Below are positions 16,173 through 61,157 of a stretch of 64,000 nucleotides of DNA, in pieces; the stretch's first letter is position 1; each line of letters begins with the position of its first letter. The notes beneath the pieces were generated by a model. It was not told the origin of the DNA and searched no databases. It saw nothing but the letters and a program-made list of their open reading frames with translations. The translations under genes were made by a program, and so were the position numbers. The stretch covers positions 5,146,001 through 5,210,000 of the forward strand of contig CM035351.1 in NCBI GenBank assembly GCA_020137815.1. The letters are read 5' to 3'. The DNA is from Hormiphora californensis. Taxonomy: Eukaryota; Animalia; Ctenophora.

Positions 16173-19229
<3,057 letters not shown>

Positions 19230-20167: not shown

Positions 20168-20941
20168 CTATGCTGCGGCATTCACGACTTTCTTCATTCT
20201 GACTTTCCTCGGGATTGGCTGAGATAGGTCACATACTCGCTGGGACGCCTGGGCTGCTTTGGCCCCTGAGGATACTTTCCACACGTTCGGGTTCTCCTCA
20301 AGTTCCTTTCTGTCCTTGGGCCGGGCTAGCTGGCAGATGTGAGAGGAAGCTTTAGCGGACATGGTCTTGGGATGAACGACACTCTGTACTGGACAGGGTG
20401 GCAGATAGGCAGCATGGGTGTTCTTTGCTTCGGCCAAGGATTCAACTCGAGATGAAGCGACTCCCTTGAGAGCAGCCGGGCTGATTTCTGAGCTCCACTC
20501 GCTATAATCCCAGCCAGTTCCTTCCTTAACGGGCAGAGAGGCACACTTTTTGGGAACTGCAAGTTGCGATAATCTCTCAGTAGCGACAGCCTTCAGTGCT
20601 CCAGATGTTACAACCGATTGAACGGGGCCACGGGCAGTCCAATCGGGGTGGAGATTCTTAGGTTTCGATAAGTTTAAAACACCAGCGGAAGCGGAAGCAG
20701 ATTTAGCACCAGCAGACACAGCCCAAATCGGCGAGGGACGGTCTTGCGCAAAATTGTTGTGGTATGGCTTTGGGTCGCACAGCTGACCCTGCCTATCAGT
20801 CAGCAAAAACTTCGTGGATGCATTAGGATTACTCTTTACAATCTTCGACTCCGCATAAACAGACCGTTTGTCTTCAATAAACCCAGCAGGCAATGGTTTT
20901 GCTCTTGCCAAATCGGATATGCGTGCAGATTTTGTAGCCAT
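20168..20941 (-). CDS. THEG-repeat (testicular haploid expressed gene-like) axonemal microtubule-associated protein, intronless ORF
   Basis: Repeated motifs RISDLARAK, RLSQLAVPK, RVESLAEAK, HICQLARPK and RVCDLSQP, preceded by W.VS..A..A..S. A splice acceptor lies 2 nt before ATG 20941, so upstream exons are possible. Confidence 0.82.
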   Translation of the reverse strand: MATKSARISDLARAKPLPAGFIEDKRSVYAESKIVKSNPNASTKFLLTDRQGQLCDPKPYHNNFAQDRPSPIWAVSAGAKSASASAGVLNLSKPKNLHPDWTARGPVQSVVTSGALKAVATERLSQLAVPKKCASLPVKEGTGWDYSEWSSEISPAALKGVASSRVESLAEAKNTHAAYLPPCPVQSVVHPKTMSAKASSHICQLARPKDRKELEENPNVWKVSSGAKAAQASQRVCDLSQPIPRKVRMKKVVNAAA

Positions 20942-21380
20942 GCCTGTGAACAAATGCATCATGCAATAGCGAAAATAACCGAAAATTTAATCACAAATTT
21001 GAAAAATGAAATGAGAACTTGCCCATCAGACAGCAATTACACAGTGGTAGAATCTGGCAGCAGACAAACCAAACCTCTCTAAAAAGGCATCAAATAACTA
21101 GCAAGCTAAAGGATCAATCAAATAATAGCAGCATAGAACGGTATGCATACTAAAAGATCAACATTTCACTTAGCTAGGTTCATTTCCAGCTGATAAGTCT
21201 AGATGCACTACGACAGAGGATACCATGCGTCTCCATGACACTGTGCTCCTTTATCAAATTTTTTGTTGCGATTCTGATTTGAGCATTCGATTGAAGTTCT
21301 CGCGCGCCGCGCGAATCAACTGCGCAGCGATCAAAAACCAAGTCTGCGCGCTCCGTATTCGGTGAATATTGAGCGCGTTA

Positions 21381-42737: not shown

Positions 42738-44550
42738 GGAGAGAGATTGGGAGAGTGAGGGCCAATTGAAATGCAAGATATTGAATCACTCAGCTATTGA
42801 TCAAAATGCAAACTCAAAGCAACCGCTCACAAGCTCTTTGCTTGATTTTCCTGGAATTTAAGTGATTTATTCAACGCGAGTCGAATGCAGGGTTTGACTG
42901 GGCTGAGTTGTGGGGTAGCATTTTACAATGGATCGAATTCGCGACGCGATATATTATTTAAGTGGTCATATAACTATAAGTAAATTCGTTTGGTTTCCTA
43001 TTGAACCATTTATTGGATTGATTTCAGTGGAGTGATTTCAGTGATTTCATAATCGACAAAAGTCGGATAGATGCTCGATATTGGAAGAAGTTACATGTCT
43101 TTCCTGTTGTCCAACAACTTATTGGCCCATCAGGGCCCGGTAATACAAATCGATCGAGCCATACCAAGAGCAGATTCTGAAAAGAAATTCTCGCCCAGAA
43201 ATTCTCGGAATGACCCTCCAAAATCACCATTTATATCAAATGATTTGCCTATTTGAGGAAGGTCGCACAAAGGGGTCAACAAACTTGATGCATGTTATGA
43301 TTGGTGCAGGCCTTTCTCCCATCATTGATCTACACATGATTGCTAGAAATGAGTCGTGGCGTTATGCAAAGAGGTTTTCTACGAGTAAAGTCTTCTGTAG
43401 TGATAATTAGGACAGGCGGCCGTGAGTACTTTCAGGAGAAAGTGTATAAATATTGATGGTGGAGAACCTCTCTCATCGCTGAAAATAACCATGGATATGT
43501 CCTAATTTGATCTACAAAAATCCGAAATTTCCTGCTACATACATACTTGAAGTTCTTTCACGTGACAACCCCTAGGCAGATAATTAATTTGATACAACAA
43601 GGATACTATAATTAGTAGAGTGCATATATTCTAGCTTTGTTGTATGCTATCCAAAACTCGTATGACATTGACACCTATAATATAGCGTGACCGAGATTGA
43701 GCTCGCACAATATATCTGCAAAGCAGAGACTACTAGTCTGACTAGAGAGATAGATAGAGAGATAGCAACGATACCAAATGCAAAGGTAACGCTGGTCTAG
43801 AATTATAAATTCTCGTAGTATAACAAGCGACTCTTGGAGGTGTTGCATTGAGAATGATATCTCTTTGTGTGGGCATGCGTTGTGGTTAATATTTATATAG
43901 TGTGTATTATCAAACTAAAAATAACTTATTTAAGAAACAGAAATTAATTTCGGTATTGACATTAAAACATTTAATTTATTAAATTGTCCAGCAGATAACA
44001 CGTATAGATATGAAGAGCGTCCTGATCCTTCAGAAAAACTTCTGTAGCACCCCCTGGAGCTACTTTTTTGAACACCACTTCGCTGATACACGATCAGTAA
44101 AGGGGCTTGTTTGAATTCTTAACAAACGGACGCATTCACCAAACCCACGGAATTCCTCATTCTCACTTACACACGCACCAAAACACACACTATGTATAAT
44201 AACGTACCCAAGTCATGAAATGACATACTCGCACACTAAATATAATTCTACTTTGAAAATAAAAATATAACAAGATATACACCACCCGCGAGATATTTAC
44301 AGTTGCAGATGTACTGCAGATTATAATAATACATTTTCAACAACTCTATCAACTTTTGTTTTGATCTCAAAATTTTTACACGAACCCAAAATATTATCAA
44401 CGGTTTCATCCAAAATAATGGATAACGCGTTGTATTTAAAATACTACTGCTAATGTAAGAATATATTGTTTTCATTTTCAATATATTACAAACGTTTATT
44501 AAACGTCGTTTAAGATACAATTCAGACATGATAAAAAGAAAACAAGTGGA

Positions 44551-44837: not shown

Positions 44838-46693
44838 CTAGTTACTACGCCTGGTACACTGGTGTTTACTAGGACTGACTCTCCGACACTCAAGGTTATC
44901 CAAACAGGGACAGCCGCTCCCGCTCAACACGTGGTAATGAGGATAACACGTGGCCCCTTCACCTGAAACATAACATTTGTATTACATTTTGGGGGAAGGG
45001 GGGAATTTTGGGAAGGGGGAAATTTGGGAAGGGGGGATTTTGGAAGGGATTGAGTGGACCAGGAACAAGGTACAGGAAGAACAAGAATATGTTAGTAGTA
45101 CGTACCTAGTTTGTCCCAGCATTTCTTGAATCTACAGCACTTGTTAACTGGACAATTCGCCGATGAATTACAGGTAGGAGACTGACAAGGAAAATAAGAT
45201 ATTAGAGAAAAGTATCATGGATCTTTTTATCATGGATCCGATGTATCACTGATCTACCTGATCAAATGCCTCATACTGCGTGTGTTATCATATTGTTTTC
45301 TTAAGACTACTATAGTTAAATCTTACCTCTTCTTGGCACGTGTAAACGGGGAATGGGGTGAAGTCCTCCATGTACGACAGACACACTAGGCCGTCTTCAC
45401 AGGGGCACTGTGATCCATCAAGGCCCCGTAAACAGTATTCGCCGCCATTCACCCGACCCTTTAGATGACCTTTCTTAACACACACCCCACCATCGTTCTC
45501 GGTATATCGGACTAGGCAACAGTACTGGCTGCCGGGACACCCTGGATGAAGGTTGTGTGTTAGAAAATGCAGAAATAACATTCTGTTAACTCAACTCTTC
45601 GCTGGTTGACCCGTTTGGAGCTACAGTACGCCAGTTCTATTTATAGTTCTATTATGCATGTATTTATGATTTCTTAGTGAACGATTTCTATAAACTACGT
45701 GAAAGATACTCTCTCTGTAAGAAGTTGTCACCCCCCCCCCTTTTTGATTTCGTGCACTTGGTTTGTTCGCGTGCCTATTACATGTTAACCGTGTGGTGCA
45801 TTCGTAAAAAAGTAATAAACATAATAAAATTCGACGTTTGGGGTGACAACTTCAAAAATTTACGAAAAAAGGAACTATTTTATATCTTATTATCTTACCA
45901 TTGTCGACACAGTTGGTAATATCCGGCCTAATCCTCATACATTTGTTACGATGGCATATCCTGTTAACTGTACACGTCTCTGACTCAGGACATACAGGAT
46001 TGCAGTCTTTATCAGCTCCACAGGGTATGCTGCACCTGTGAGAGAAGGGGACCGGGTTTTAGCTTGTAGAATATACGGGGCCGGGAATATACAAATGTGT
46101 GGCCGGTACGGGTTATGTTCTAGCTTGTAGAATATACAACTGTGTGGCCGGTACGGGTTATGTTCTAGCTTGTAGAATATACAACTGTGTGGCCGGTACG
46201 GGTTATGTTCTAGCTTGTAGAATATACAACTGTGTGGCCGGTACGGGTTATGTTCTAGCTTGTAGAATATACAACTGCATGTGGCCGGTACGGGTTATGT
46301 TCTAGCTTGTAGAATATACAACAGTGTGGCCGGTACGGGTTATGTTCTAGCTTGTAGAATATACAACTGTGTGGCCGGTACGGGTTATGTTCTAGCTTGT
46401 AGAATATACAACTGCATGTGGCCGGTACTTTGATAACAGGGCAAGCCAATAACAGGGTGTTTTTTGACACACCAGCAGCATCAAGACTGCAATTCGATTA
46501 ACGACAAGCCTGTATATAAGACAAGTCATGCATGATAACAAAATTCCATGTTTTCACGTCATAAAATAATGTTCTGAAGAATTAGTAAAACCTCAAGTTC
46601 AGCCTATAATTACTTGTTTTGTTCAAACAAGCCAAATAATTACCTTGATCGAAGGATAAGGAGAGATGATAGAAAGGTAATCGTTAGTAGCAT
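44838..46693 (-). CDS. Probably secreted Cys-rich protein (~200 aa) with two tandem prokineticin/colipase-fold domains; exons 46693-46644, 46035-45899, 45541-45327, 45181-45106, 44962-44838
   Basis: Hydrophobic N-terminus MLLTITFLSSLLILRS. Domain 1: CVDNGCPGSQYCC..GVC..GEYC..CPCEDGLVC..YTC. Domain 2: CNSSANCPVNKCC..KC..GEGATC..CPCLDNLEC..HQC. Splice phases are consistent; exon 1 is less certain. Confidence 0.82.
46097..46427. repeat. 45-bp intronic minisatellite, about 7 copies
   Basis: TGTGGCCGGTACGGGTTATGTTCTAGCTTGTAGAATATACAACTG repeated. Confidence 0.95.
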
Positions 46694-48615
46694 ATCGACC
46701 CAGTTTATCAATCATAACATGACCTGTGAGCGAGAGAGTGGATGAGGTTTCCAGTTGACGATATTACAAACTCTTTCAAGGGACGGATTAGGGAAATACC
46801 ACAATAATAAAATATATTACGAATGACGTTAGTGTTAAATAAGCTGCGAGATCGGGACAATAAAATCAATTTTACCAGCACCACGGTCTGGGAATAAGAG
46901 TATTAGACAACTAAAGTATCTTATGGAATTTATCACGCGGGGAGGGTGGGTCGAACAAGGCAAAAGATTATTAGTTCTTCTCAGCCGTAGCCCATAATAA
47001 TGACGTGTTTCTAGAAGAATTTATCACTGATAATTAGCAGAAGATTTAACCGTGCGGGGCGATCAGGGACGAGCTGGAACTATTAGGTTAGGATCACGCC
47101 GGGTCAAAATCAATAAACCAGGATGCAGAGGCTGCAGTTCTGAATCATGTAGCATCTTTACAACGCGATCAAGATGTTGAAGTGGGAAATGAACCTGATA
47201 TTTATACCCCCGACTCGGATTGAGAGGAGAGTTTCTTAAAATAAATCGCAGTTCGGAAGATCTTATAGTAATGGGGTTTTAAAAGGTAGAAATGCTTTTA
47301 GGATGATGTTACTCTGATGGTATGGTAGTCGTCAGCATAAGTGCAGTGGTACGGGTATATATCGGCAGAGTGATAGATTAGAGAGAAGAAGCAATTTAGA
47401 ACTCCGATCACTATTTTACAATTTCAATTTTAAAAGTGTTCCTGAAAACTGCAGGGGACTCATGTATCGTTATCGCTCATACTTGGATACAGCCTAGGTA
47501 AAATATCGGTGTGGTATAATAGGAGCAAAGCAAACAGCTGAACCCAGCTAATATTTCTGCATTGGGTCTGTTACTTCTTTGTCTGGTGTGATTCTCGTTT
47601 AGTTTGCTTAGTACGCGGTAGGTGGTCTAGTAACTGTCGAATGGCGAACTAGAAACCGGATATTCGAAAAACAGCGGGATCAAATGGGGAGAGGGAGGGA
47701 AGGAGAGGAAGAGAGTGAGACGTGAGTGAGAGACAGAGAGAGAAAGAGAGGGAAGGTACAGATAGAGAAACAAAGAGAGAGGGGACAGACAGGAGTCATG
47801 TGCTGAGAAGAAACAGATAAACGTGGAAACAGCTCAAATCCAGGAAAGATCTCCTGTCGAAACGAATATTCCAGGTAGAAGTTTTGCAAGGTCTGCATGG
47901 CATACAAAGTTTATTCGTGCAGTTTTAATAACTCGATAATCAGCTTGTTATGAGCTGTGAGAGAGAAAGAAAGATAAAAAACAGGCACTGTCAAAGTTTT
48001 AAAACCCAGGAGAAACACGTCTCGATTATAAAGCCCCCATAAAGCCTTGCCGTATATCAAGCAGGCCATGATAAGTGTAGGATAATACACCGATAACAAA
48101 ACAGAAGGAATACAGCGTGTGTGTTTCACTATGTCAGAAGGACGTGTATATTTATACCGCTGCTGCACATAGCTTGGGAGACAGACAGCCAACCAATTCT
48201 CTATATCATTTCTGCCTGTCTCATTTATCCGTGTGTCTCTCTCTCTCGTTTGTGTGGAAGAGGAGTAGAAGTAAAGACTAATTTACGCCCCCTGTCCAGA
48301 CCTATGGTACCTGTTACTGTTCTCTAAATAGAAGGACACGTAATTTCTAAAAACTGCTACAAGCACACTTCTAAAAGCCTTGATACCGATTCTTTGCAGC
48401 AGTGATAATATCTTGATCTTATCATGAGGTAATTTCAATAGAACAGGATGGTAAAAAGAGACTGTAGTGGGCAAAAGTTTATGAGGCGCTTGAGTATTAG
48501 GATTAGGATGAAACATGGTAAAAGTAGAACTTTCATTAGTGACCTTAAGTTCTACTCCTAACTTCATAGCCACAACAATATATCAGCATATATATACCAA
48601 GATAACACATGTATG

Positions 48616-50044: not shown

Positions 50045-53000
50045 TTAAGAGAGTGCATCATCGGTGTGAAGAGAGATTCTCATGTCCCACATATCATCAC
50101 ATACACTGGAGAGGGCTGCTGCTGCGTTATCAGTGGCCTGGGTCGGTCCCTGTTCTGTCCCACCAGAGGCCGTGGAAGGGGTCTGGTTTGGTTCCGTCCC
50201 GGCAGATGGAGAGACATGAGGGAGCTGTTGGTCCGCCGGGGGCTGGTAAGTAGGTGGGTAACTGGAACCAATAGGGTAACCATGGTTACCATTGTATTGT
50301 GCATGGTAACCATGGTTACCATTTAACTGTTCAGGGTAACCATGGTAAACATCATATTGTCCAGGGTAACCATGGTTAGCACTATATTGTGCAGGGTAAC
50401 TTTGAGCTTGGTTAACATCATAGTCTCCATAGTTACCACCACTGTTACCTTGGTAACCATTTGGATCAGCACCATAATGATAACCATCACTCTGTCCTCC
50501 ATGGTAACCATGGTTACCATCATATTGTCCATGGTAACCACCGTCCTGATGATAACCACTGTTAACAGGTCTATTGCTAACTTTATCCTCTACTAGTGCG
50601 TCAGGGCGGCCACCCCTCCCACCTCTGGAACCTCCCACCATCCCCCCTGAGGTTGGGGGAGGTGCCAACTCAGGCTCCCTGGCCAGAGCTAAAGGTGTAG
50701 CACCAGTAATTACAGGTAGATAATTCTCACTGGGAATCGGAATGGGGGACTCTGTACAGTTAAAAAACATTGGTGTAGTGTGCCGAACGGTGGTGTGAGT
50801 CTCTGTACCCTGGAGCAGTCTCCTGAAATCATAGGAATTTTGTTGAGATTTAGAAGCAGGGATAAAGAGTTTAGAGGGATCAAGAGAATAAAATTTGCAA
50901 TAAAAAATAGTAATATCTCCAAAGTTAGGGCACCTGATTAGATCGCTGTTCATTACTGGGCGTGTTTCAAACTGCTGCTGGTGTCGCACGAACCCGACCA
51001 GTGGAGGAGGAACCTGACCAGCCTGAAATGAAGGAATTTAGATATTTTTCGTAACCAAATTGCAGAAAACGGGAATTTTATAGGGTGACAACATTCTAAG
51101 TACAGGGTACAGAGGACACTGGACAGACATCATGAGAACCGATAAAAGCGAGGTAGACTGCTCTTATCTGTTAATTACTGCACTTCCTAACACTACACCA
51201 GTCCCCACACCACCCTAACCGCATCACTTCCGAAAGGATGATCCGGCACTATGCTGTCTCGCCTGTTCGGCGAGACTTGGCTGTGTGACTGTTTACAGTC
51301 CCAGATGAGCGGCCCAAACCAAACCAGACCAAACCGCATCACTTCACCCCTACCCTACCCCTACCCTACCCTACCCTCCCACTCCAGTCTGCTTCCCCAA
51401 AACATATCTAACCTGTGTCACAAGAGCAGATAGTTTAGGTGGGAGGGTGTCCACGACAGCGCATAGAGCGTAGGAGAGATCCCTGGCGTGTTTTATAACT
51501 GGGTCTATGTCCAGTTTTGCAGTGACACTCTGTGCCCAGTAGAGGACCTGGTCTGATGTTGCACACGCTAGCACCTAGCAAGAGAGACAGGGTGTGTATT
51601 TGATGAGACCTAGGATTATTAAAGTTGAATATTAAGTTAATATTATTAACTGTAAATTGATATTAGACGAGACTAAATACCTGTTCCTTATTGGTTATGA
51701 TAAGAGCAGAAGCAAAGAATATTTCAAAATGGGCGGTGTTGTGTTGAGCGAATAGAATGTCCCATAGCCGCAGGATTGAGTCCATTTTAAATTCGTTCTT
51801 GAACAGCAGAAGGAACCACCTAAAGGTAAACTTGTTGATTTATTGAGATCATACCTCATTTAATTTGTAACTCATGACATGGAACGTGATAGTGGAAGAC
51901 TGAGTTTTCATTTCAAGTGGGTGATGTAATAGTTATCAATCGTCACCCACCTAAAACAGAAAAGCCAATGCCCGCATGTTATCTTCTCAATGTGATTATA
52001 AAGCTCTTCATCAAAGTGTTGGATAAGGTCTGCTGTCGAGGAAAGTTGCGGGGATATGTCAAGGGTTAGGAGCCGGTCTCTCAGTTGAGGCATCAGCTTG
52101 ACAAAGCACCAAAAAGTGAGAGACTCGTCCTGTGGGGTATATCGCAAAGAAAGGTATGAGAAACTGTCACAATATAAATTATGTAAAAGATGCTAGAAAG
52201 AGTTGTTGTGTTCTAACCCGCGGGCCCACGACACCGGGGGGGGGGGGGGGGGGGGGGCTGGGATTTGTAAAAATTGAAAGTTTTGTCGGTATATTTCAGG
52301 AAGCGACCGAATATTCGGTTCGGTTCGGTTCGGTTCGGAAATTCGGTGTTTTTTGGGCGGTTCGGTTCGGTTCGGTTCGGTAGGAAATTTTGGCCGAACC
52401 ACCGAATTTTTTGGTCAAACAAGAATAAATGCATTATGTTTCATAATGCTATGTTTCCCCGCCAACCTTTCATTTCTAACACGAAGGCGGGACAGACATT
52501 TCAGATCATTTATAAATCAACCAATCAGTATAGAACAAATCCTTGTGTTTTAGTAGCACTAAATTGCACGCCACATTGCGGAATTGCGCGGCACACAATT
52601 CCTGAAAACGTGTCAATGAAGTGGTTTATGAAGGAGCAGGTTGTTGTTGTGAGCGCGGCTCTAGTTGCTACATGTTGCCCCTCGCAACCTGAAACGGGAC
52701 AAGAGAGCTGACTTGCTACACATAGTCACTATATCCGTTTAGATTTCTAAACCCCTATGCCTTTTTGCAATGGTTTCGTCCCTGAGTCCGTCAATAAATC
52801 GCTCTTTAATTTCGTGATTACCATTTTTCCGATGTAGTAGTCGGGATCGTCTGTAATCTGTATCTGGGGTCGTCTCGTGATCGTCGAGGAGTTTGGAGAT
52901 GAAACCAATTCGCTCGTAGAAATCCATGACAGATTCTTCTAACTGTTGCGTTGCCTGTCTCAGTGCCAGTTTTGCAGATAGTTTCATTGTAGGCGATGTT

Positions 53001-56000
53001 AGTGCTGCGATCACCCGAGATCTCACCTCCCTCCAATTTGCTTTTTGCTCTGTCGTGAGATTCAGATCCCTCAATTTATCTTTACATTTCTCCGGCAGGT
53101 CTGTAAGGAGACTGATGTACCTATGTTCTCTCATCGGGCATTGAGGTAACTTCCTTGTACTCCTCGAACTCCCTCAAATATTGCTGGAAAGTCGTTTTCT
53201 CGTCGTAAATTTTGGGCTTATTTGCGACGGAATAAGAGATTTGAAGATCCTTCTTCGCTTGCCTGAGCTTTGCTTTAACATCCTCTGCTGTGAAGGTCAC
53301 GTTGCCATCTGTCACGTCGACGAAGAATGTGGGTGTCTCTGTATACAGATCTGTCTGATAAACTGTCTGTCATCCACATCTGTGATTCCGCCTCCGAACA
53401 CAACAGTAGTTAGGTCACAGCACCAATTGTTGTGTCTATGATTTGGGCTCTGTGTGTTTCGTGATAACCCAGTTAGTTCGTGTTGTGTTGACAGTTGGAG
53501 TGGACTGTTTGGCCGTGTTTGACTATTGATGTCTGTCGTTGGTTGTAGTTGTATATTGGTACCAAATAATGAGTCGTTGTCTTCGGTGGGTCAAACTAAT
53601 ACAGGGTGTCCCACTGTCTTTGCATCACCTGTGATTTTGGGTGATGAGTGGCTTCCATTCAAATGCTCATAACTCATCGAAAAATAGGTCAAAACGGCTC
53701 AACCAAAAACAGTGTTGTAGAGAATTGTCAGGCGAACATTTGGGTACAAGATTGATGTTCCAAGTCTTACCAACCGTCAGATATATCGTCTTAAAGTCAA
53801 AAATATGTGTTCATGAAATCCGACCGGGGTTCACGTTTTGAAAAATTCACAAATGCAAAGTTGCTCGGATCACATTGCATCCCTCATAAGAGTTGAAGGA
53901 AATTGTCTGGCGGTCATTTTGGTACCCGGGTTTTTGTCCTAGCTCAATGTTTAGAGTGTCTTATGACTGTCAGAACTGGAATTTTCACAAAAGTGGTCTC
54001 AGGTATCTCATTACATTTTGCTCTGTTATGAAGCTCATTGCTGCTTGAATAACATCTTAGTGCATGATAGGGTTGAGATAGACCACATGGGTATCCTACA
54101 CATTAACAGGGGCCTTGCCAAATCGTCATAACAACCCTGTCAAGTGTCTAGATGAAATTGAGACGATATGTGCTGATTATCATGGGATTACACACGACAC
54201 CGAGCCACCTAATTAGGCGTTGTGAGCCGATACCAACCAAGACTCAGCGTAGAAAAATCTTTATGTTCCTACAGTCATAACGCAACTAAAACGTAGAGCT
54301 ATGGAAAAAATCATGGTATCAAAATGAACCTTAGACGATTCCAATGAAGCTCTTATAAATTTCAAACCATTTTACCCATTTGTTGATGACACGTGATCCC
54401 CTCAAAAATGTTGGTTGAATTTCGTCTTTAGACAGTCATAAGACACTCTAAACATTGAGCTAGGACAAAAACCCGGGTACCAAAATGACCGCCAGACAAT
54501 TTCCTACAACTCTTATGAGGGATGCAATGTGATCCGAGCAACTTTGCATTTGTGAATTTTTCAAAACGTGAACCCCGGTCGGATTTCATGAACACATATT
54601 TTTGACTTTAAGACGATATATCTGACGGTTGGTAAGACTTGGAACATCAATCTTGTACCCAAATGTTCGCCTGACAATTCTCTACAACACTGTTTTTGGT
54701 TGAGCCGTTTTGACCTATTTTTCGATGAGTTATGAGCATTTGAATGGAAGTCACTCATCACCCAAAATCACAGGTGATGCAAAGACAGTGGGACACCCTG
54801 TAGTAGAACGTTACAATTATCACTCACTCAAGATATACAACTGTAAGTCTAAGTCGTTCTAAGATGTTAAGAAGCCCGGTTGTGCTCTTCGGTCCTGGTC
54901 TTATATACTGTTCCGTCTCGTACTGGTCTCACATGGTGACCTTAACGAAGTCACCAGTTCCACCAGCACGAGTGGGTCAATCAAGTCATTCCGGGGGATT
55001 CTCTCCCTGAGCTATCACTTACATGTTTGCACAACCTAGGTTGGGTCCGGTGTAAACCTGTCAGGTTAACCTGATTGGATCATAATGCTTCAGTTCTCTA
55101 ACTGTTATCTAACACTGTCAGGCTGGTGTCCGATGCAATCAATATCAGCTAAGTAAGATATAATAAGATTTAATCACTACACATCCTATAGTACAGGGTG
55201 TCCCACTGTCTTTGCATCACCTGCGATTTTGGGTCATGACCGGGCTCCATTAAACTAACCAAAACTGATCGAAAAATTGGTCAAAATGGTTCTAACAAAA
55301 ACCAGTGTTCTAGAGAATTGTCTGGCGAACATTTTGGTTGCAAGATTGACTTTCCAAGTCTTACCAATCGTCAGATATATCGTCGTAAAGTCAAAATTAC
55401 GTGTTCATGAAATCCGACCGGGGTTCACGTTTTGAAAAATTCACAAGTGCAAAGTTGCTCGGATCACATTGCATCCCTCATAAGAGTTGTAGGAAATTGT
55501 CTGGCGGTCATTTTGGTACCCGGGTTTTTGTCCTAACTCAATGTTTAGAGTGTCTTATGACTGTCTAAAGACGAAATTCAACCAGCATTTTTGAGGGGAT
55601 CACGTGTCATCAACAAATGGGTAAAATGATTTGAAATTTACAAGAGCTTCATTGGAATCGTCTAAGGTTCATCTTGATACCATGGTTTTTTCCATAGCTC
55701 TACGTTTAAGTTGCGTTATGACTGTAGGAACATGAAGATTTTTCTATGCTGAGTCTTAGTTGGTATCGGCTCACAACCCCTAATTAGGTGGCTCGGTGTC
55801 GTGTGTAATCCCATGATAATCAGCACATATCGTCTCAATTTCATCTAGACACTTGACAGGGTTGTTATGACGATTTGGCAAGGCTCATGTTAATGTGTAG
55901 GATACGCAAGTGGTCTATCTCAACCCTATCATGCACTAAGATGTTATTCAAGTAGCTATGAGCTTCATAACAGGGCAAAATGCAATGCGATACCTGAGAC

Positions 56001-59000
56001 CACTTTTGGGAAAATTCCAGTTCTGACAGTCATAAGACATTCTAAACATTGAGCTAGGATAAAAACCCGGGTACCAAAATGACCGCCAGACAATTTCCTA
56101 CAACTCTTTTGAGGGATGCAATGTGATCCGAGCAACTTTGCACTTGTGAATTTTTCAAAACGTGAACCCCGGTCGGATTTAATGAACACGTAATTTTGAC
56201 TTTACGACGATATATCTGACGATTGGTAAGACTTGGAAAGTCAATCTTGCAACCAAAATGTTCGCCAGACAATTCTCTAGAACACTGGTTTTTGTTAGAA
56301 CCATTTTGACCAATTTTTCGATCAGTTTTGGTTAGTTTAATGGAGCCCGGTCATGACCCAAAATCGCAGGTGATGCAAAGACAGTGGGACACCCTGTATA
56401 TACAAGGTGGGCCACGGATTGTTGGTCATGGTTAGCGAGGTGGTGCGTCAAAACGGTGATAGTTGTGAGAATAAAAGTTATGGGAGCACTCTGGATCAAT
56501 TCCTTGGTAACTTTTTCCATAATTTTTTGTCAAAAATTCGAAAATTCATTTTTCATTCCTTCATTCATTTCTCGTTCATTCATGATGTGAGCATCCTAAT
56601 TTTCCATCATTAGGCTATTTTTCTTTGGCTTGAATTTATCTTTCCAATGAGCACCATGAAAATGAAATTGAAGCACCAGGTCACTCAGCAGTCGAGAAAA
56701 TGTTCATGCATGATTTTGGCTCTTTTTGCGACTTTCAAACAGCTGTATCACAGCTACCTTTCGTTCAATCTTCTTAAAACTTTGGGAAAACATTAGATAA
56801 GCAAAGATCTTTGCTCACAAGAAAAATCAAGGCCAAAGGTCAAAGTTCATTTTTCATTTTTGTTAGTTCATTCCGTTCATTCAGGAATCAACATCCCTAA
56901 AGTGATGAAAAGGTTTGGGTTTTGTTTGGCCCATGTCCTGCAATGATAGAGAGGTGTAATAGCGTGTTTCCGGGCTAGTTTGTGGGTGTCCATGTGATCA
57001 TGATGATATCTGACACCTTTTCTGAGCCATAACTAAGGGATTTTCTCAAATTCAAGCATGTAACTTGGTTTTTCTGCGATTAGTACCGTGCAGCAATGTT
57101 ATGAGATCTCATAACACCTCAAAAATGATGATTAGCTCAATGAAATGAGTTGATTTATGATTGAAAAGATTAAAACCGATGACAAATTGAACGAAACGAA
57201 CAATTACATCATCAATCAACTCATTTCATTGAGCTAATCATCATTTTTGAGGTGTTATGAGATCTCATAACATTGCTGCACGGTACTAATCGCAGAAAAA
57301 CCAAGTTACATGCTTGAATTTGAGAAAATCCCTTAGTTATGGCTCAGAAAAGGTGTCAGATATCATCATGATCACATGGACACCCACAAACTAGCCCGGA
57401 AACACGCTATTACACCTCTCTGTCATTGCAGGACATGGGCCAAACAAAACCCAAACCTTTTCATCACTTTAGGGATGTTGATTCCTGAATGAACGGAATG
57501 AACTAACAAAAATGAAAAATGAACTTTGACCTTTGGCCTTGATTTTTCTTGTGAGCAAAGATCTTTGCTTATCTAATGTTTTCCCAAAGTTTTAAGAAGA
57601 TTGAACGAAAGGTAGCTGTGATACAGCTGTTTGAAAGTCGCAAAAAGAGCCAAAATCATGCATGAACATTTTCTCGACTGCTGAGTGACCTGGTGCTTCA
57701 ATTTCATTTTCATGGTGCTCATTGGAAAGATAAATTCAAGCCAAAGAAAAATAGCCTAATGATGGAAAATTAGGATGCTCACATCATGAATGAACGAGAA
57801 ATGAATGAAGGAATGAAAAATGAATTTTCGAATTTTTGACAAAAAATTATGGAAAAAGTTACCAAGGAATTGATCCAGAGTGCTCCCATAACTTTTATTC
57901 TCACAACTATCACCGTTTTGACGCACCACCTCGCTAACGTAACCATGACCAACAATCCGTGGCCCACCTTGTACAAAATCATGCATGAGCATTTTCTCAA
58001 CTGCAACGTGACCTGGTGCTTCAATTTCATTTTTATGGTGTTCATTGGAAAGATAAATTCAAGCCAAAGAAAAATAGCACCATGATGGAAAATTAGGATG
58101 CTCACATCATAAATGAACGAGAAATGAATGAAGGAATGAAAAATGAATTTTCAAATTTTTGACAAAAAATTATGGAAAAAGTTACCAAGAAATTGATCCA
58201 GAGTGCTCCCATGATTTTTATTCTCGCAACTATCACCGTTTTGACGGGACAACTCGCTAACCCTTACCAACAATCCGTGGCCCACCTTGTACTTAGTTTC
58301 TTTTAATGCAGCTGACATGCCTCCTTCAACCCAAGCTCCTGCAAGTGTCGGACAAGTGGTGTTAGCAGATAAAATTGATGCAGTTGAAGAGCAGTTCACT
58401 GTCAATGAAGTGGTCGAGCGATCAGGATGGGGCTACTATCAACAGAAGATGCTTCTTGTAACTGGGATCATTTCCTTTGCCACTGCAGCTGAGGTGTGGC
58501 TGGTTGGAATTATTCTAAAGAATATAAAATGCGAATGGGACTTATCGTCCTCTCAGGAATCCTTGGTTATTGCTATACTGTTCCTATTCTATTCCATTGG
58601 AAGCCTAACTTGTGGGTACTTTGCTGACAAATACGGCCGATGGGTTGTTCTGGTGATCACAATCTTCATAACCGGTATCTCAGGGGTTGCCTTTGCTTTC
58701 GCTCCTAACTATTACTTCTTTCTGATTTGTCGCTCTTTCGCCGGGTTCGCCATGGGTGGAAACTATGCCATTTGCATGGTATACTCCCAGGAAATGATGT
58801 CCGCAGCTCAACGGGCAAAAACAATGTTCGTGATGGAAGCGTTCGTGGTGGGAGGGTTCCTGTACCCGAGTTTGGTCGCGTTGGTGGTCATGGATATGGA
58901 GAATGGATGGCGGATCCAGGCTTTCATTACAGCTATGCCCCTTGTGGTAGCTGGAGTTCTCGGCTTATTCTTCCTCGACGAATCACTTCGGTTTCTTGTG

Positions 59001-61157
59001 ATTAATGGAAAGGTGGAAGAGGCACTGAAAATTGTGAATAAAATTTACAAGGAAAATGATCTTAAACCCTTTAAGGGATCTTTGACGGTCATACTGGAAC
59101 GAAAAGGAACGATTGCTGACGTCTGGGCAGCGCCACATACCTTTGAATACATACAGCTAACAATCCATTGGGCGTGTGACAATTACCTATTCTTCGGGGT
59201 GTTCCTCCTCGGCCCGAATATGCTGAGTGATGACTACTGTGGTATGGTCTCCTTTTTCAACGCCACTATGGTAGACGACACCGGATGTGATGTTTTCACT
59301 AACGCAGGGTATTGGTGTTTTGCAGTTATCGCCGTCGCTGTCTTCCCCGGGAACATCCTTTCTATGTTATGTGACTGGATCGGTAGGAGAGCATCATTTA
59401 CGGGGATTATCCTCGTTGGCCTAGTCTCTACGATATTTATGTTTGTCTGCCTCACTAGCTGGGTCACCATCACCGCACTTATTGTCTGTGTCGTCTGTTA
59501 CACTGCAATAACTGCCATTGCCTGGATATACACCCTTGAATTATATGCAACCTACACCCGGGGAACTGCTACAGGAGTCCATAATGCGATTGGGAAGCTA
59601 GGTGCAGCGCTAGGCACCTACCTCACTACTTACCTGTATGGCTACGGGGTGGAGTATGCCTTGCTGAGCTTCGTGGTGGTCCAATCCATAAATTCCATTG
59701 TGGCACTCTTTCCGAAAAGAGAAACAAAGGGGGCAGTGTTGCAGGATGCTAGATCGAAGGCTAGTGTCTGAAGGTGTATAAGGTCCAAATGAGGCACGGA
59801 GCTTTTCTGAATCAGCTTTTCAAGACGAATCCAACGCAACCGGAATTAACTTTCTATCTTATCGGGAAGGTTCGGTTCACTCACACTCATTTTTAGTCAT
59901 TTTTGCCGCACTAGCCAATCAGAGGCCAGAATTTCGAAATCCAGCCCTCTGATTGGATCACACGGCTAAAAATGGAAAAAGTGAACCACTGCATGGATTG
60001 TAAGAGTTGGAGAAGCAGGAAACAAAGTGTCCTATGGAACAATCGATTAGATTAAAGCGAGGGAGAATTAGAACGGCCTCGATTTTGATTTTATTTGGTG
60101 TACAATTAGAAATATTTTTAGGTCTTACTCAACCAAAAAGCGATGTTTTTACTTGATCCAACCCGAAGCCGTTGGCAAGCCCAGGCACTCTGTAGATAGA
60201 AGACATATATAGGTGGCAGGTGCTACGTAAATAGAATGAAGCTTGAGAGTCGATTTATTTCTCTCAAGATGGACTTCTAAATGCCTAAAATGAGTGAAAT
60301 CGGTTAAAAAATTTTCCGGGGGGCATCGCCCCCCCCCCCACCGGGAGCTTTGCAACTGGACCCCATTGGGGGACTGCAGCTGCGGCACCCAAACCCCTGC
60401 CGCTGCTTCTCCGGCGTCGCTTCGCGGCACCGTCGTCTCACACCTAAAAAATTACGGTGCCTCGCACCGTCCCCCCCCCCTGAGAAATTTCCGTGTCGTG
60501 GGCCCTGAACCCTCCTTTACATTTGTGAAAGAGGGTCGTCGGTCGGGCTAGGCAAAGAAAGAGTAGGCAGGGAAGTGCCAGACGCCAGTTTAGTTGGGGA
60601 ATATCAAACCTTGAGAATCAAGAGGAGGGGAGCTACAAGTTCATTCATTCCTTGCACATAAGAAACTTCAGTGTCATAGACAGATAATGTGATCAGTATT
60701 CTTCTCAACATTCGTAGTCCTTCCGAATCCTCTGACTCAAAATAATGGTGTTTTCGTTCCGTTCTTAGTACGTCCTTTCCTACGGTCTAGAGAATTAAAT
60801 TTAGAAAACAACAAGAGAATAATAAAATATTAAATAACATATTCAGTGTTCACTCCGCCCTATACAACACACCTTGATAGCACTTCTCATTTCCTTGTCG
60901 AAAAATGTTGGTTCTGCGTTTATCCACCCATTTCGTATCCTCTCATATTCAGTCTGTAGTTTCAGCTTGGTGTGTGACCTCTTTGCAGCACTGCTGGTTC
61001 TCTCCCAGAGGTTCAGTAAGGTAGGCCATGCCTGAGACCGAATGTCGTCGGCCAAGCCAAAGTGATACGAAGTTTTTCTGAGCTGATACTCATCCAAGAG
61101 CTGCCCTGTAGCATCAAAGAACGATGACCACGTCTCCAACCTAATTTTTTGGTCCAT
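50045..61157 (-). CDS. TBC-domain Rab GTPase-activating protein (TBC1D15/17/25-like) with a low-complexity C-terminal tail; exons 61157-60873, 60786-60610, 52129-51951, 51819-51681, 51574-51413, 51022-50045 (possibly a small in-frame intron near 50823-50933)
   Basis: IRSQAWPTLL, KDVLRT (R finger), YVQGMNEL (Q finger), TFWCFVKLM, FCFRWFLLLFKNEF and LRLWD; exons are in phase. Confidence 0.9.
52739..53330 (-). pseudogene. Frameshifted Ty3/gypsy-type gag remnant
   Basis: FQQYLREFE...W.EV.......Q..EESVMDFYERI...IKERFIDGLRD across two overlapping frames; no pol seen. Confidence 0.75.
53413..55181 (-). mobile_element. 5' LTR (55181-53428, interrupted by a MITE) plus primer-binding site of the gag remnant
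   Basis: The minus strand starts TGTAGTG and ends CACAACA, contains TATATAA, and is followed by AT-TGGTGCTGTGAC, similar to the complement of the tRNA-His 3' end. Confidence 0.65.
53602..54800. mobile_element. Tc1/mariner-like MITE with ~370-bp TIRs and TA target site, copy 1
   Basis: TA-CAGGGTGTCCCACTGTCTTTGCATCACC...GGTGATGCAAAGACAGTGGGACACCCTG-TA. Confidence 0.92.
55194..56396. mobile_element. Tc1/mariner-like MITE, copy 2 (core in opposite orientation, slightly diverged)
   Basis: Same termini and TA target site as copy 1. Confidence 0.92.
56403..57971. mobile_element. Palindromic Tc1/mariner-like element with ~770-bp arms; partial older copy at 57974-58289
   Basis: TA-CAAGGTGGGCCACGGATTGTTGG...CCAACAATCCGTGGCCCACCTTG-TA. 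Confidence 0.9.
58317..59771 (+). CDS. MFS transporter, SV2/SVOP-like (sugar porter/SLC22 family); intronless and nested antisense in the TBC gene intron
   Basis: About 484-aa ORF with roughly 12 hydrophobic segments; GWGYYQ, GYFADKYGR, ES.RFL...GK.EEA, DWIGRR, YTLELY.T..RGTA.G and ETKG motifs. Confidence 0.93.
   Translation: MPPSTQAPASVGQVVLADKIDAVEEQFTVNEVVERSGWGYYQQKMLLVTGIISFATAAEVWLVGIILKNIKCEWDLSSSQESLVIAILFLFYSIGSLTCGYFADKYGRWVVLVITIFITGISGVAFAFAPNYYFFLICRSFAGFAMGGNYAICMVYSQEMMSAAQRAKTMFVMEAFVVGGFLYPSLVALVVMDMENGWRIQAFITAMPLVVAGVLGLFFLDESLRFLVINGKVEEALKIVNKIYKENDLKPFKGSLTVILERKGTIADVWAAPHTFEYIQLTIHWACDNYLFFGVFLLGPNMLSDDYCGMVSFFNATMVDDTGCDVFTNAGYWCFAVIAVAVFPGNILSMLCDWIGRRASFTGIILVGLVSTIFMFVCLTSWVTITALIVCVVCYTAITAIAWIYTLELYATYTRGTATGVHNAIGKLGAALGTYLTTYLYGYGVEYALLSFVVVQSINSIVALFPKRETKGAVLQDARSKASV

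What the first reader, a model, noticed from the sequence alone, without database searches (positions are those of the whole stretch)
44838..46693. Hidden, probably secreted protein with two tandem prokineticin/Dickkopf-CRD2 (colipase-fold) domains
Seen: five small exons splice in phase into a ~200-aa protein with a hydrophobic N-terminus, a 7-Cys N-terminal module and two 10-Cys domains with spacing C-C-CC-C-GxxC-CPC-LxC-C. Domain 2 reads CPCLDNLEC against prokineticin-1 CPCLPNLLC. Known: this fold is used by prokineticins, AVIT/MIT toxins, astakines, Dickkopf CRD2 (LRP5/6 binding) and colipase; the AVIT N-terminus is absent here. Inference: if the host is a ctenophore, where I recall Dickkopf being reported missing, this could be an undescribed Wnt modulator, GPCR ligand or tentacle/colloblast toxin with an unusual double-domain architecture. 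The ORF track shows only one exon.
Basis: partly seen in the sequence, partly recalled or inferred. Interest (0 to 1): 0.85.

Follow-up and report, generated by a model that had tools for sequence, protein, structure and literature searches.

The report
Comb-jelly double prokineticin-like secreted protein
An intact five-exon gene, likely from a comb jelly and partly conserved in a related genome, encodes a predicted secreted protein with two linked cysteine-rich domains of the prokineticin/Dickkopf type; it likely works as a two-headed binding signal rather than a true Dickkopf, and would extend this protein family to one of the earliest-branching animal lineages.

Summary
Observation confirmed. 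Five GT-AG exons on the minus strand (46693-44838) give an open 200-aa frame with a hydrophobic N-terminus and 27 Cys: a 7-Cys N-module and two 10-Cys domains. An intron read-through ORF from another genome (P0006) keeps exon 4 (19/26) and exon 5 (37/40) while the intron between them has diverged, so the gene is real and constrained. A neighbouring gene points to a Pleurobrachia-like ctenophore. Colipase-fold evidence is consistent but weak: Prokineticin E=0.0016 (below cut-off), MIT1 E=0.044, Dkk/Colipase_C E about 0.1; structure models were too poor to test the fold. It is not an AVIT prokineticin. It is probably not a Dickkopf: no CRD1, and 0 of 11 listed LRP6-contact positions are identical in either domain. 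Tandem colipase-fold genes are already known from anthozoan nematocysts (PMC11896702), but those are cleaved polyproteins; this one has no dibasic linker and carries an extra half-domain. No transcript, expression site or function is shown. The scan had not noted it before. New variant of a known kind; interest 0.5.

The parts
46644..46693 (-). Exon 1: ATG and most of the predicted signal peptide (aa 1-17); phase-2 donor
   Evidence: 9-residue hydropathy 1.4-2.3 over the first 8 windows; the more hydrophobic of two phase-2 ATG-donor candidates between 46036 and 49500 (2.61 vs 1.1). No signal-peptide predictor was available; small residues at -3/-1 fit cleavage after aa 16 or 18.
45899..46035 (-). 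Exon 2: end of signal peptide, N-terminal Cys module (C18-C49) and first Cys of domain 1 (C59)
   Evidence: Pfam DUF7107 E=0.0017, below cut-off.
45939..45992 (-). Four-Cys finger C32-C49 (spacing 5,5,4), a half colipase-type domain
   Evidence: 9 of 21 identical, ungapped, to the N-half of domain 2; 10 of 5000 Cys-fixed shuffles reach the score; tblastn self-hit.
45327..45541 (-). Exon 3: nine of the ten Cys of domain 1 (acidic: net -5, pI 4.8)
   Evidence: The C-half alone hits DIKK1-2-4_C-subdom2 E=0.099 and Colipase_C E=0.1; the whole exon has no Pfam hit.
45106..45181 (-). Exon 4: N-half of domain 2 (five Cys)
   Evidence: 19 of 26 identical to P0006; DUF7107 E=0.013, Dumpy_DPY E=0.21.
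44838..44962 (-). Exon 5: C-half of domain 2 (five Cys) and stop codon
   Evidence: 37 of 40 identical to P0006; Pfam Prokineticin E=0.0016, 19.1 bits against cut-off 21.6; PDB 1imt E=0.044.
46036..46643 (-). Intron 1 (608 nt), containing a 45-bp minisatellite (46085-46428, 7.6 copies)
45542..45898 (-). Intron 2 (357 nt, phase 1), between Cys 1 and Cys 2 of domain 1
45182..45326 (-). Intron 3 (145 nt, phase 0), in the six-residue linker between the two domains
   Evidence: P0006 starts matching at this acceptor.
44963..45105 (-). Intron 4 (143 nt, phase 1), between Cys 5 and Cys 6 of domain 2
   Evidence: P0006 carries a 53-residue insert (about 159 nt) at the same place, only 16 of 52 identical to the best translation of this intron.
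44495..44500 (-). Candidate polyadenylation signal AATAAA, about 340 nt after the stop
   Evidence: not tested.
46694..46725 (-). Putative 5' UTR: a splice acceptor just before 46723 and two out-of-frame ATGs (46720, 46715)
   Evidence: the ATG at 46715 would open a 31-aa overlapping frame.

Best explanation
This is an intact five-exon gene, likely of a Pleurobrachia-like ctenophore, for a predicted secreted 20-kDa protein in which a half-domain finger and two predicted colipase-fold (prokineticin/astakine-like) domains stay joined, and it likely acts as a non-enzymatic, two-headed ligand for one of the animal's own extracellular or cell-surface proteins. Steps: (1) shown: exon chain, open frame, Cys pattern, internal repetition; (2) inferred: secretion, with cleavage after aa 16-18 (cleavage after C18 leaves 26 Cys, 13 possible disulfides); (3) inferred: both 10-Cys domains take the colipase fold; (4) inferred: the domains are not cut apart, because the linker has no dibasic site; (5) inferred: the nearly invariant C-terminal half of domain 2 is the binding surface and its partner is a conserved self protein. 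It would not activate a receptor by the AVIT mechanism, and probably does not bind LRP5/6 as Dickkopf does.
For: Gene structure and Cys spacing. Domains 1 and 2 are related beyond their cysteines: 15 of 2000 Cys-fixed shuffles reach the score. The finger matches the N-half of domain 2 (10 of 5000). Of 24,736 Pfam models, the only hits for the two C-halves are colipase-fold families: Prokineticin for exon 5, DIKK C-subdomain 2 and Colipase_C for the C-half of exon 3. The only PDB hit for exon 5 is 1imt, 16 of 35 aligned residues identical by my count of the printed alignment. Domain 2 spacing 5,4,0,4,9,11,1,5,9 compares with 5,4,0,10,9,17,1,5,10 in Xenoturbella prokineticin 1 (read by eye from supplement file 1 of PMC11521371). 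Exon 5 is 37/40 and exon 4 19/26 identical in P0006, against 16/52 for the translated intron. No AVIT, RGD/KGD, HFW or FQRC motif, and no dibasic pair in the linker. Invertebrate prokineticin-like proteins without AVITGA are thought to work by another route (PMC8398477, passages).
Against: All profile hits are below curated cut-offs, and exons were scored one at a time. Whole exon 3 and the two-domain profile A2 found nothing in PDB sequences; the best PDB hit of the exon 3 C-half was urokinase, E=1.8. Only one true homologue was found among 1.84 billion representatives, and it covers domain 2 only; the species distance is unknown and probably small, since its intron is still detectably related (0 of 1000 shuffles), so 93% identity is weaker evidence than it looks. 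No partner, expression site or transcript is known. The closest published architecture, in anthozoans, is found in nematocyst venom.
Confidence: 0.52

Rival explanations
1. A prey-capture or defensive secretion of tentacle gland cells or colloblasts, parallel to the tandem colipase-fold proteins of anthozoan nematocysts.
For: Multi-domain colipase-fold proteins without AVITG are abundant in the Eunicella nematocyst proteome and come from five-exon genes (PMC11896702 section 3.2.4). The best PDB hit is a venom member of the family, 1imt. Ctenophore tentacles may secrete toxins (PMC6278862, passages).
Against: Single copy in the window, no paralogue cluster. Exon 5 is 37/40 conserved, whereas venom peptides usually diversify fast (general knowledge). 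No cleavage site in the linker. PMC6278862 has 0 occurrences of 'prokineticin' or 'colipase' in its main text. No expression data.
Confidence: 0.16
2. A divergent Dickkopf-like Wnt modulator: domain 1, or both domains, bind ctenophore LRP5/6.
For: 10-Cys CRD2-type pattern twice; the best Pfam hit of the domain 1 C-half is DIKK1-2-4_C-subdom2, E=0.099. Domain 1 has conservative changes at 3 of 11 listed LRP6-contact positions. Mnemiopsis has LRP5/6 but no recognised DKK, and the authors allow for unrecognised antagonists (PMC2959043). Hydra dkk1/2/4 lacks CRD1 (PMC6425005).
Against: 0 of 11 mapped LRP6-contact positions are identical in either domain; the R236 position is Q and G, the F234 position is G in both; the loop carrying H204/W206 is only four residues in domain 2 and varies in P0006. 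No Dickkopf_N hit for the N-module. CPC, not CYC, at the CxC site. Domain 2 scores best with Prokineticin. Caveat: the mapping is Cys-anchored, the contact list is second-hand, and one anchor (C263) is recalled.
Confidence: 0.13
3. An antimicrobial colipase-fold peptide like Hydra NDA-1.
For: NDA-1 is a taxon-restricted, secreted, cationic 10-Cys colipase-like peptide in a non-bilaterian (PMC5614986, passages). Domain 2 is basic (net +6, pI 8.9).
Against: The charge is not conserved: the four charge changes in the exon 4 block of P0006 lower it by 5. Domain 1 is acidic, so the mature protein is near neutral (pI 7.7).
Confidence: 0.08
4. A structural or matrix finger-repeat protein (Dumpy/DUF7107-like) or a digestive lipase cofactor, without a signalling role.
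For: Exons 2 and 4 hit DUF7107 and Dumpy_DPY weakly; the domain 1 C-half hits Colipase_C at E=0.1. If C18 is retained, one Cys is unpaired and could cross-link.
Against: Small size and only five finger units; the conserved part is the prokineticin-like C-half, not the fingers.
Confidence: 0.08
5. The gene model is partly wrong (a different first exon, or exons 1-3 and 4-5 belong to separate transcripts).
For: No RNA support; the homologue covers only exons 4-5; two out-of-frame ATGs precede the start.
Against: All four junctions are canonical and in phase. Intron 3 is only 145 nt and exon 4 has no start or signal of its own. The two-exon candidate upstream stops before it could join exon 2.
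Confidence: 0.03

Closest known systems
Prokineticin/AVIT family and MIT1 (Pfam PF06607; PDB 1imt); invertebrate astakines and prokineticin-like proteins
   Same: Signal peptide plus 10-Cys pattern with CC, GxxC, CPC, LxC; best profile and PDB match for domain 2.
   Different: Two domains plus a half-domain instead of one; no AVIT(GA) and no RFP signature; Cys4-Cys5 loop of domain 2 only four residues; below the Pfam cut-off.
Anthozoan multi-domain colipase-fold proteins U-GRTX-Esi15/16 (PMC11896702)
   Same: Non-bilaterian, tandem colipase-fold domains, no AVITG, five exons and four introns.
   Different: Those are precursors cut at propeptidase sites; here the linker has no dibasic site. Their exon 2 appears from the text to hold 6 of 10 Cys of the first domain; here the domains are split 1|9 and 5|5 Cys, with an added N-module. 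Figure 4 and the supplements were not visible, so orthology was not tested.
Dickkopf (CRD1 + CRD2)
   Same: Secreted, a Cys-rich N-module followed by a colipase-fold domain; the Cys5-Cys6 distance (9) and the LxEGxxC positions of domain 2 agree with DKK1 numbering.
   Different: No CRD1; two CRD2-like domains; LRP6-contact residues not kept.
Hydra NDA-1 (PMC5614986)
   Same: Taxon-restricted secreted 10-Cys colipase-like protein of a non-bilaterian.
   Different: Single cationic domain released from a precursor; here two oppositely charged domains, and the charge is not conserved.
Dumpy DPY module / DUF7107 four-Cys finger (PF21164, PF23416; PDB 1oig)
   Same: Finger with Cys spacing 5,5,4 in the N-module; weak hits for exons 2 and 4.
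   Different: Here a single free finger in front of complete 10-Cys domains.

Membership tests
Colipase-fold superfamily (colipase, prokineticin, Dkk CRD2) | Ten cysteines in the order C, C, CC, C, C, CxC, C, C | tested here: met
   Both domains.
Colipase-fold superfamily (colipase, prokineticin, Dkk CRD2) | Profile match at a curated cut-off | tested here: inconclusive
   Prokineticin 19.1 bits vs 21.6 on half a domain; DIKK C-subdomain 2 and Colipase_C 13.2 bits vs 27 and 23.7. Whole domains could not be scored because introns split them.
Colipase-fold superfamily (colipase, prokineticin, Dkk CRD2) | Three-dimensional fold of two disulfide-directed hairpin subdomains | tested here: inconclusive
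   Models had mean pLDDT 50 and 42; fold searches on them are not meaningful.
Colipase-fold superfamily (colipase, prokineticin, Dkk CRD2) | Disulfide connectivity | not testable with these tools
   Needs protein chemistry or a solved structure.
Prokineticin/AVIT family | N-terminal AVIT(GA) needed for receptor activation (PMC11521371, PMC8398477) | tested here: not met
   No AVIT in the protein.
Prokineticin/AVIT family | Single prokineticin domain directly after the signal peptide | tested here: not met
   N-module plus two domains.
Astakine | Two astakine signature motifs inside the domain | not tested
   The passages read mention the signatures without giving them.
Dickkopf | CRD1 (Dickkopf_N, 8-10 Cys) | tested here: not met
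   The N-module has 6-7 Cys, no CC and no Dickkopf_N hit at E<=10. Hydra dkk1/2/4 also lacks CRD1, so this alone does not exclude membership.
Dickkopf | CRD2 with ten conserved cysteines | tested here: met
   Twice.
Dickkopf | LRP6-contact residues of CRD2 | tested here: not met
   0 of 11 mapped non-Cys positions identical in either domain (12 listed in PMC9532339, Q184 not mapped); 3 conservative in domain 1.
Dickkopf | Phylogenetic grouping with Dkk CRD2; LRP5/6 binding and Wnt inhibition | not testable with these tools
   No family sequences were held as usable proteins; function needs bench work.
Anthozoan tandem colipase-fold precursors | Five exons, four introns, several colipase domains | tested here: met
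Anthozoan tandem colipase-fold precursors | Propeptidase (dibasic) sites between the domains | tested here: not met
   Dibasic pairs only at 85, 153, 186 and 197, none in the linker 132-137.
Anthozoan tandem colipase-fold precursors | Shared intron positions | tested here: inconclusive
   The text implies a 6|4 Cys split of their first domain, against 1|9 and 5|5 here; figure and sequences not seen.

The most novel reading that the evidence does not exclude
This is the unrecognised ctenophore Wnt co-receptor modulator: a proto-Dickkopf in which a finger module and two CRD2-like domains clamp LRP5/6 bivalently, showing that colipase-fold control of Wnt signalling goes back to the last common ancestor of all animals.
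Probability: 0.13. Interest if true: 0.85.

Novelty: new variant of a known kind. Interest (0 to 1): 0.5.

Why it matters
Dickkopf is reported from sponges, cnidarians and bilaterians but was not found in Mnemiopsis (PMC2959043), and prokineticin/colipase-like peptides are discussed for cnidarians and bilaterians (PMC6425005, PMC11521371). I found no paper placing a colipase-fold protein in ctenophores (searches; open-access library only). A constrained ctenophore gene of this type would push the superfamily back to the base of animals and give a concrete candidate with which to test whether ctenophores have a secreted LRP5/6 modulator. The linked half-domain + domain + domain layout is also a natural example of the fold growing by hairpin duplication. 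If it is a lineage-restricted ligand or secretion with an unknown partner, the interest is moderate.

Tried and rejected
No RNA holder was listed; the one added run laid no contig on 43500-47500, and it was not shown to hold this organism, so this says nothing about expression. No whole genome is held, so paralogues outside the window were not searched. The ESM Atlas gave no result for exon 3 or P0006. Word-indexed protein searches: exon 3 against longer proteins, 0 of 2 candidates; P0006 residues 42-163 against proteins of 89-286 aa, only itself of 4 candidates. No full-length orthologue and none from lobate ctenophores was found; these searches are insensitive for such proteins. P0007 (E=1e-6) is an unrelated repeat ORF matching a 12-residue stretch. 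Metagenome loci L001-L004 (4 of 38 pattern matches) are chance matches of 14-15 residues in GC-rich DNA without the other cysteines. Structure predictions of exon 3 (pLDDT 50) and of P0006 with its intron insert (pLDDT 42) were too poor; Foldseek had no match at E<=0.001 and VIA-align none at Z>=5. A five-disulfide spider peptide at rank 4 (E=1.6) is not significant, and the preprint 10.1101/485722 calls it non-homologous to the colipase fold. PDB sequence searches with exon 2 and the exon 3 C-half gave only chance-level hits. NCBIfam: 0 of 5 proteins hit. The profile comparison is circular (both sides hold exon 5) and was discarded. Alignments A1, A3-A6 misplaced cysteines and were not used for searches. 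NxI/V motifs (three occurrences) are at chance level. An alternative 5' end from the candidate exons at 49679-49181 is excluded by stop codons. No complex prediction was run: no ctenophore LRP5/6 or full-length protein was available as input.

Full report
1. Observation. The region was read on both strands. Five minus-strand exons (46693-46644, 46035-45899, 45541-45327, 45181-45106, 44962-44838) are bounded by GT..AG introns of 608, 357, 145 and 143 nt in phases 2, 1, 0, 1, and give 603 nt: 200 aa and a stop, with no internal stop. There are 27 cysteines: seven in an N-module (C18-C49), ten in domain 1 (C59-C131) and ten in domain 2 (C138-C195). Only exon 3 sits in a listed in-frame ORF of 80 aa or more. 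A motif for the C-half occurs twice in the window and in 0 of 100 resampled windows (a lenient control, because the motif was written from this gene).

2. Independent evidence that the gene is real. An HMMER search of 1.84 billion cluster representatives with a profile of the two C-halves returned 2 proteins. P0007 is an unrelated repeat ORF. P0006 (E=1.4e-16), from a 2044-base ENA contig, is an ORF that reads through an intron: it holds a block 19/26 identical to exon 4, a 53-residue insert, and a block 37/40 identical to exon 5. The insert lies exactly at intron 4 and is only 16/52 identical to the best translation of that intron, though still above 1000 of 1000 shuffles. So a related genome has the same exon borders and the exons are constrained relative to the intron. 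This covers exons 4-5 only. No RNA holder was listed. Exon 1 is the best local candidate for a first exon, but two out-of-frame ATGs precede it.

3. Host and neighbourhood. The intronless MFS ORF at 58245-59771 is 84-86% identical to two proteins that their source labels Pleurobrachia bachei, and 45% to a Bolinopsis protein. The host is therefore likely a Pleurobrachia-like ctenophore. Other neighbours are tektin, THEG and RabGAP-TBC exons. The gene is single in the window; no genome was available for a wider search.

4. What the domains are. Exons were scanned separately. Exon 5 hits Pfam Prokineticin (E=0.0016; 19.1 bits, cut-off 21.6) and, among PDB sequences, only 1imt (E=0.044). Whole exon 3 hits nothing, but its C-half hits DIKK1-2-4_C-subdom2 (E=0.099) and Colipase_C (E=0.1). 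Each hit is weak; together they point to one superfamily. Domains 1 and 2 share 20 identities, 11 of them non-Cys, and 15 of 2000 Cys-fixed shuffles reach the score, which fits an old tandem duplication. The finger C32-C49 is 9/21 identical to the N-half of domain 2 (10 of 5000 shuffles) and lacks the cysteine that would bridge to a C-half, so it reads as a half-domain; exons 2 and 4 both hit DUF7107 weakly. The colipase fold has been described as two hairpin motifs in tandem (10.1101/485722, passages). Structure prediction could not test the fold: pLDDT 50 and 42, no meaningful fold match.

5. How it likely works. Shown: anatomy, repetition, conservation pattern. Inferred: secretion, with cleavage after aa 16 or 18 (after C18 an even 26 Cys remain); no catalytic motif; domains kept together, since no dibasic site lies in the linker; acidic domain 1 (pI 4.8) and basic domain 2 (pI 8.9). 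The C-half of domain 2 is nearly invariant, including its aromatic and histidine-rich loop, while the N-half varies and loses five charges in P0006. I read this as a two-headed, non-enzymatic ligand whose conserved face binds one of the animal's own proteins (0.52). The partner is unknown, and P0006 may be from a close species, which weakens the argument from conservation.

6. Comparison with known families. AVIT prokineticins need the N-terminal AVIT motif (PMC11521371 and PMC8398477, passages); it is absent. Dickkopfs carry CRD1 and CRD2, though Hydra dkk1/2/4 lacks CRD1 (PMC6425005, passages; PMC8400703, passages). The N-module is not a CRD1. Mapping by cysteine anchors 11 of the 12 non-Cys LRP6-contact residues listed in PMC9532339 (passages; a second-hand list; anchor C263 recalled) gives 0 identical in either domain and 3 conservative in domain 1. 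Dickkopf was not found in Mnemiopsis, which has LRP5/6, and the authors allow for unrecognised antagonists (PMC2959043, passages), so a divergent Wnt modulator remains possible (0.13). The double architecture has a precedent: five-exon genes for multi-domain colipase-fold precursors are conserved in Anthozoa and abundant in Eunicella nematocysts (PMC11896702, section 3.2.4 read whole; figure and supplements not seen, and they could bear on orthology). Those are cut into single domains; this protein lacks such sites and appears to have other intron positions. Hydra NDA-1 shows an antimicrobial use of the fold (PMC5614986, passages). A study of ctenophore tentacle genes has no mention of prokineticin or colipase in its main text (PMC6278862, passages), nor has a Mnemiopsis neuropeptide preprint (10.1101/2021.03.31.437758, term search). 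PMC3877318 and PMC13128682 (passages) add nothing on ctenophore Dkk.

7. Novelty. Searches for ctenophore with dickkopf (28 papers, 25 listed), with prokineticin (1 paper, seen as a listing only) and broader term sets (listings) showed no description of such a protein; subscription journals and most supplements were not covered. The scan's own notes had no look-alike. Earlier notes on Dkk/colipase-type finger modules in prokaryotic surface proteins (unchecked) caution that the finger itself may be widespread. Verdict: a real, previously unnoted ctenophore member of the colipase-fold superfamily with its own architecture, a new variant of a known kind; function not shown; interest 0.5.

Noticed in passing
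window 49679-49181 (minus): Two candidate exons (GT-AG) between the TBC gene and the focal gene. They give a 61-aa peptide with 4 Cys (ATG 49657) or an 85-aa peptide (ATG 49679), both with a hydrophobic N-terminal stretch; possibly a second small secreted protein. The first exon in the 85-aa frame had no Pfam hit.
   Followed up: partly
window 52192-50045 (minus): RabGAP-TBC gene (Pfam E=6.9e-9) whose apparent last exon is a 330-aa low-complexity ORF with a 30-bp repeat at 50273-50400.
   Followed up: no
window 58245-59771 (plus): Intronless 508-aa MFS/SVOP-like transporter ORF, 84-86% identical to two proteins labelled Pleurobrachia bachei; one of them (P0001) is fused to an asparagine-synthase-like piece, perhaps a gene-model artefact.
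   Followed up: partly
window 16652-19008 and 20168-20986 (minus): Tektin exons and a THEG-repeat ORF close together.
   Followed up: no
window about 53600-56400: Two approximately 1.2-kb elements with matching inverted ends and shared internal sequence, seen by eye; likely non-autonomous DNA transposons. A gag-like remnant lies next to them at 52739-53173 (Pfam E=0.036).
   Followed up: no
window 46085-46428: 45-bp minisatellite (7.6 copies, 97% matches) inside intron 1 of the focal gene.
   Followed up: no
window 46725-46694 (minus): A strong splice acceptor 30 nt before the start codon, followed by two out-of-frame ATGs; it could mark an upstream non-coding exon or a trans-splice site (the latter known in ctenophores from recall).
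   Followed up: partly
P0006: A database 'protein' that is an intron read-through of a eukaryotic gene on a metagenome contig; such ORFs can serve as evidence for exon borders.
   Followed up: yes
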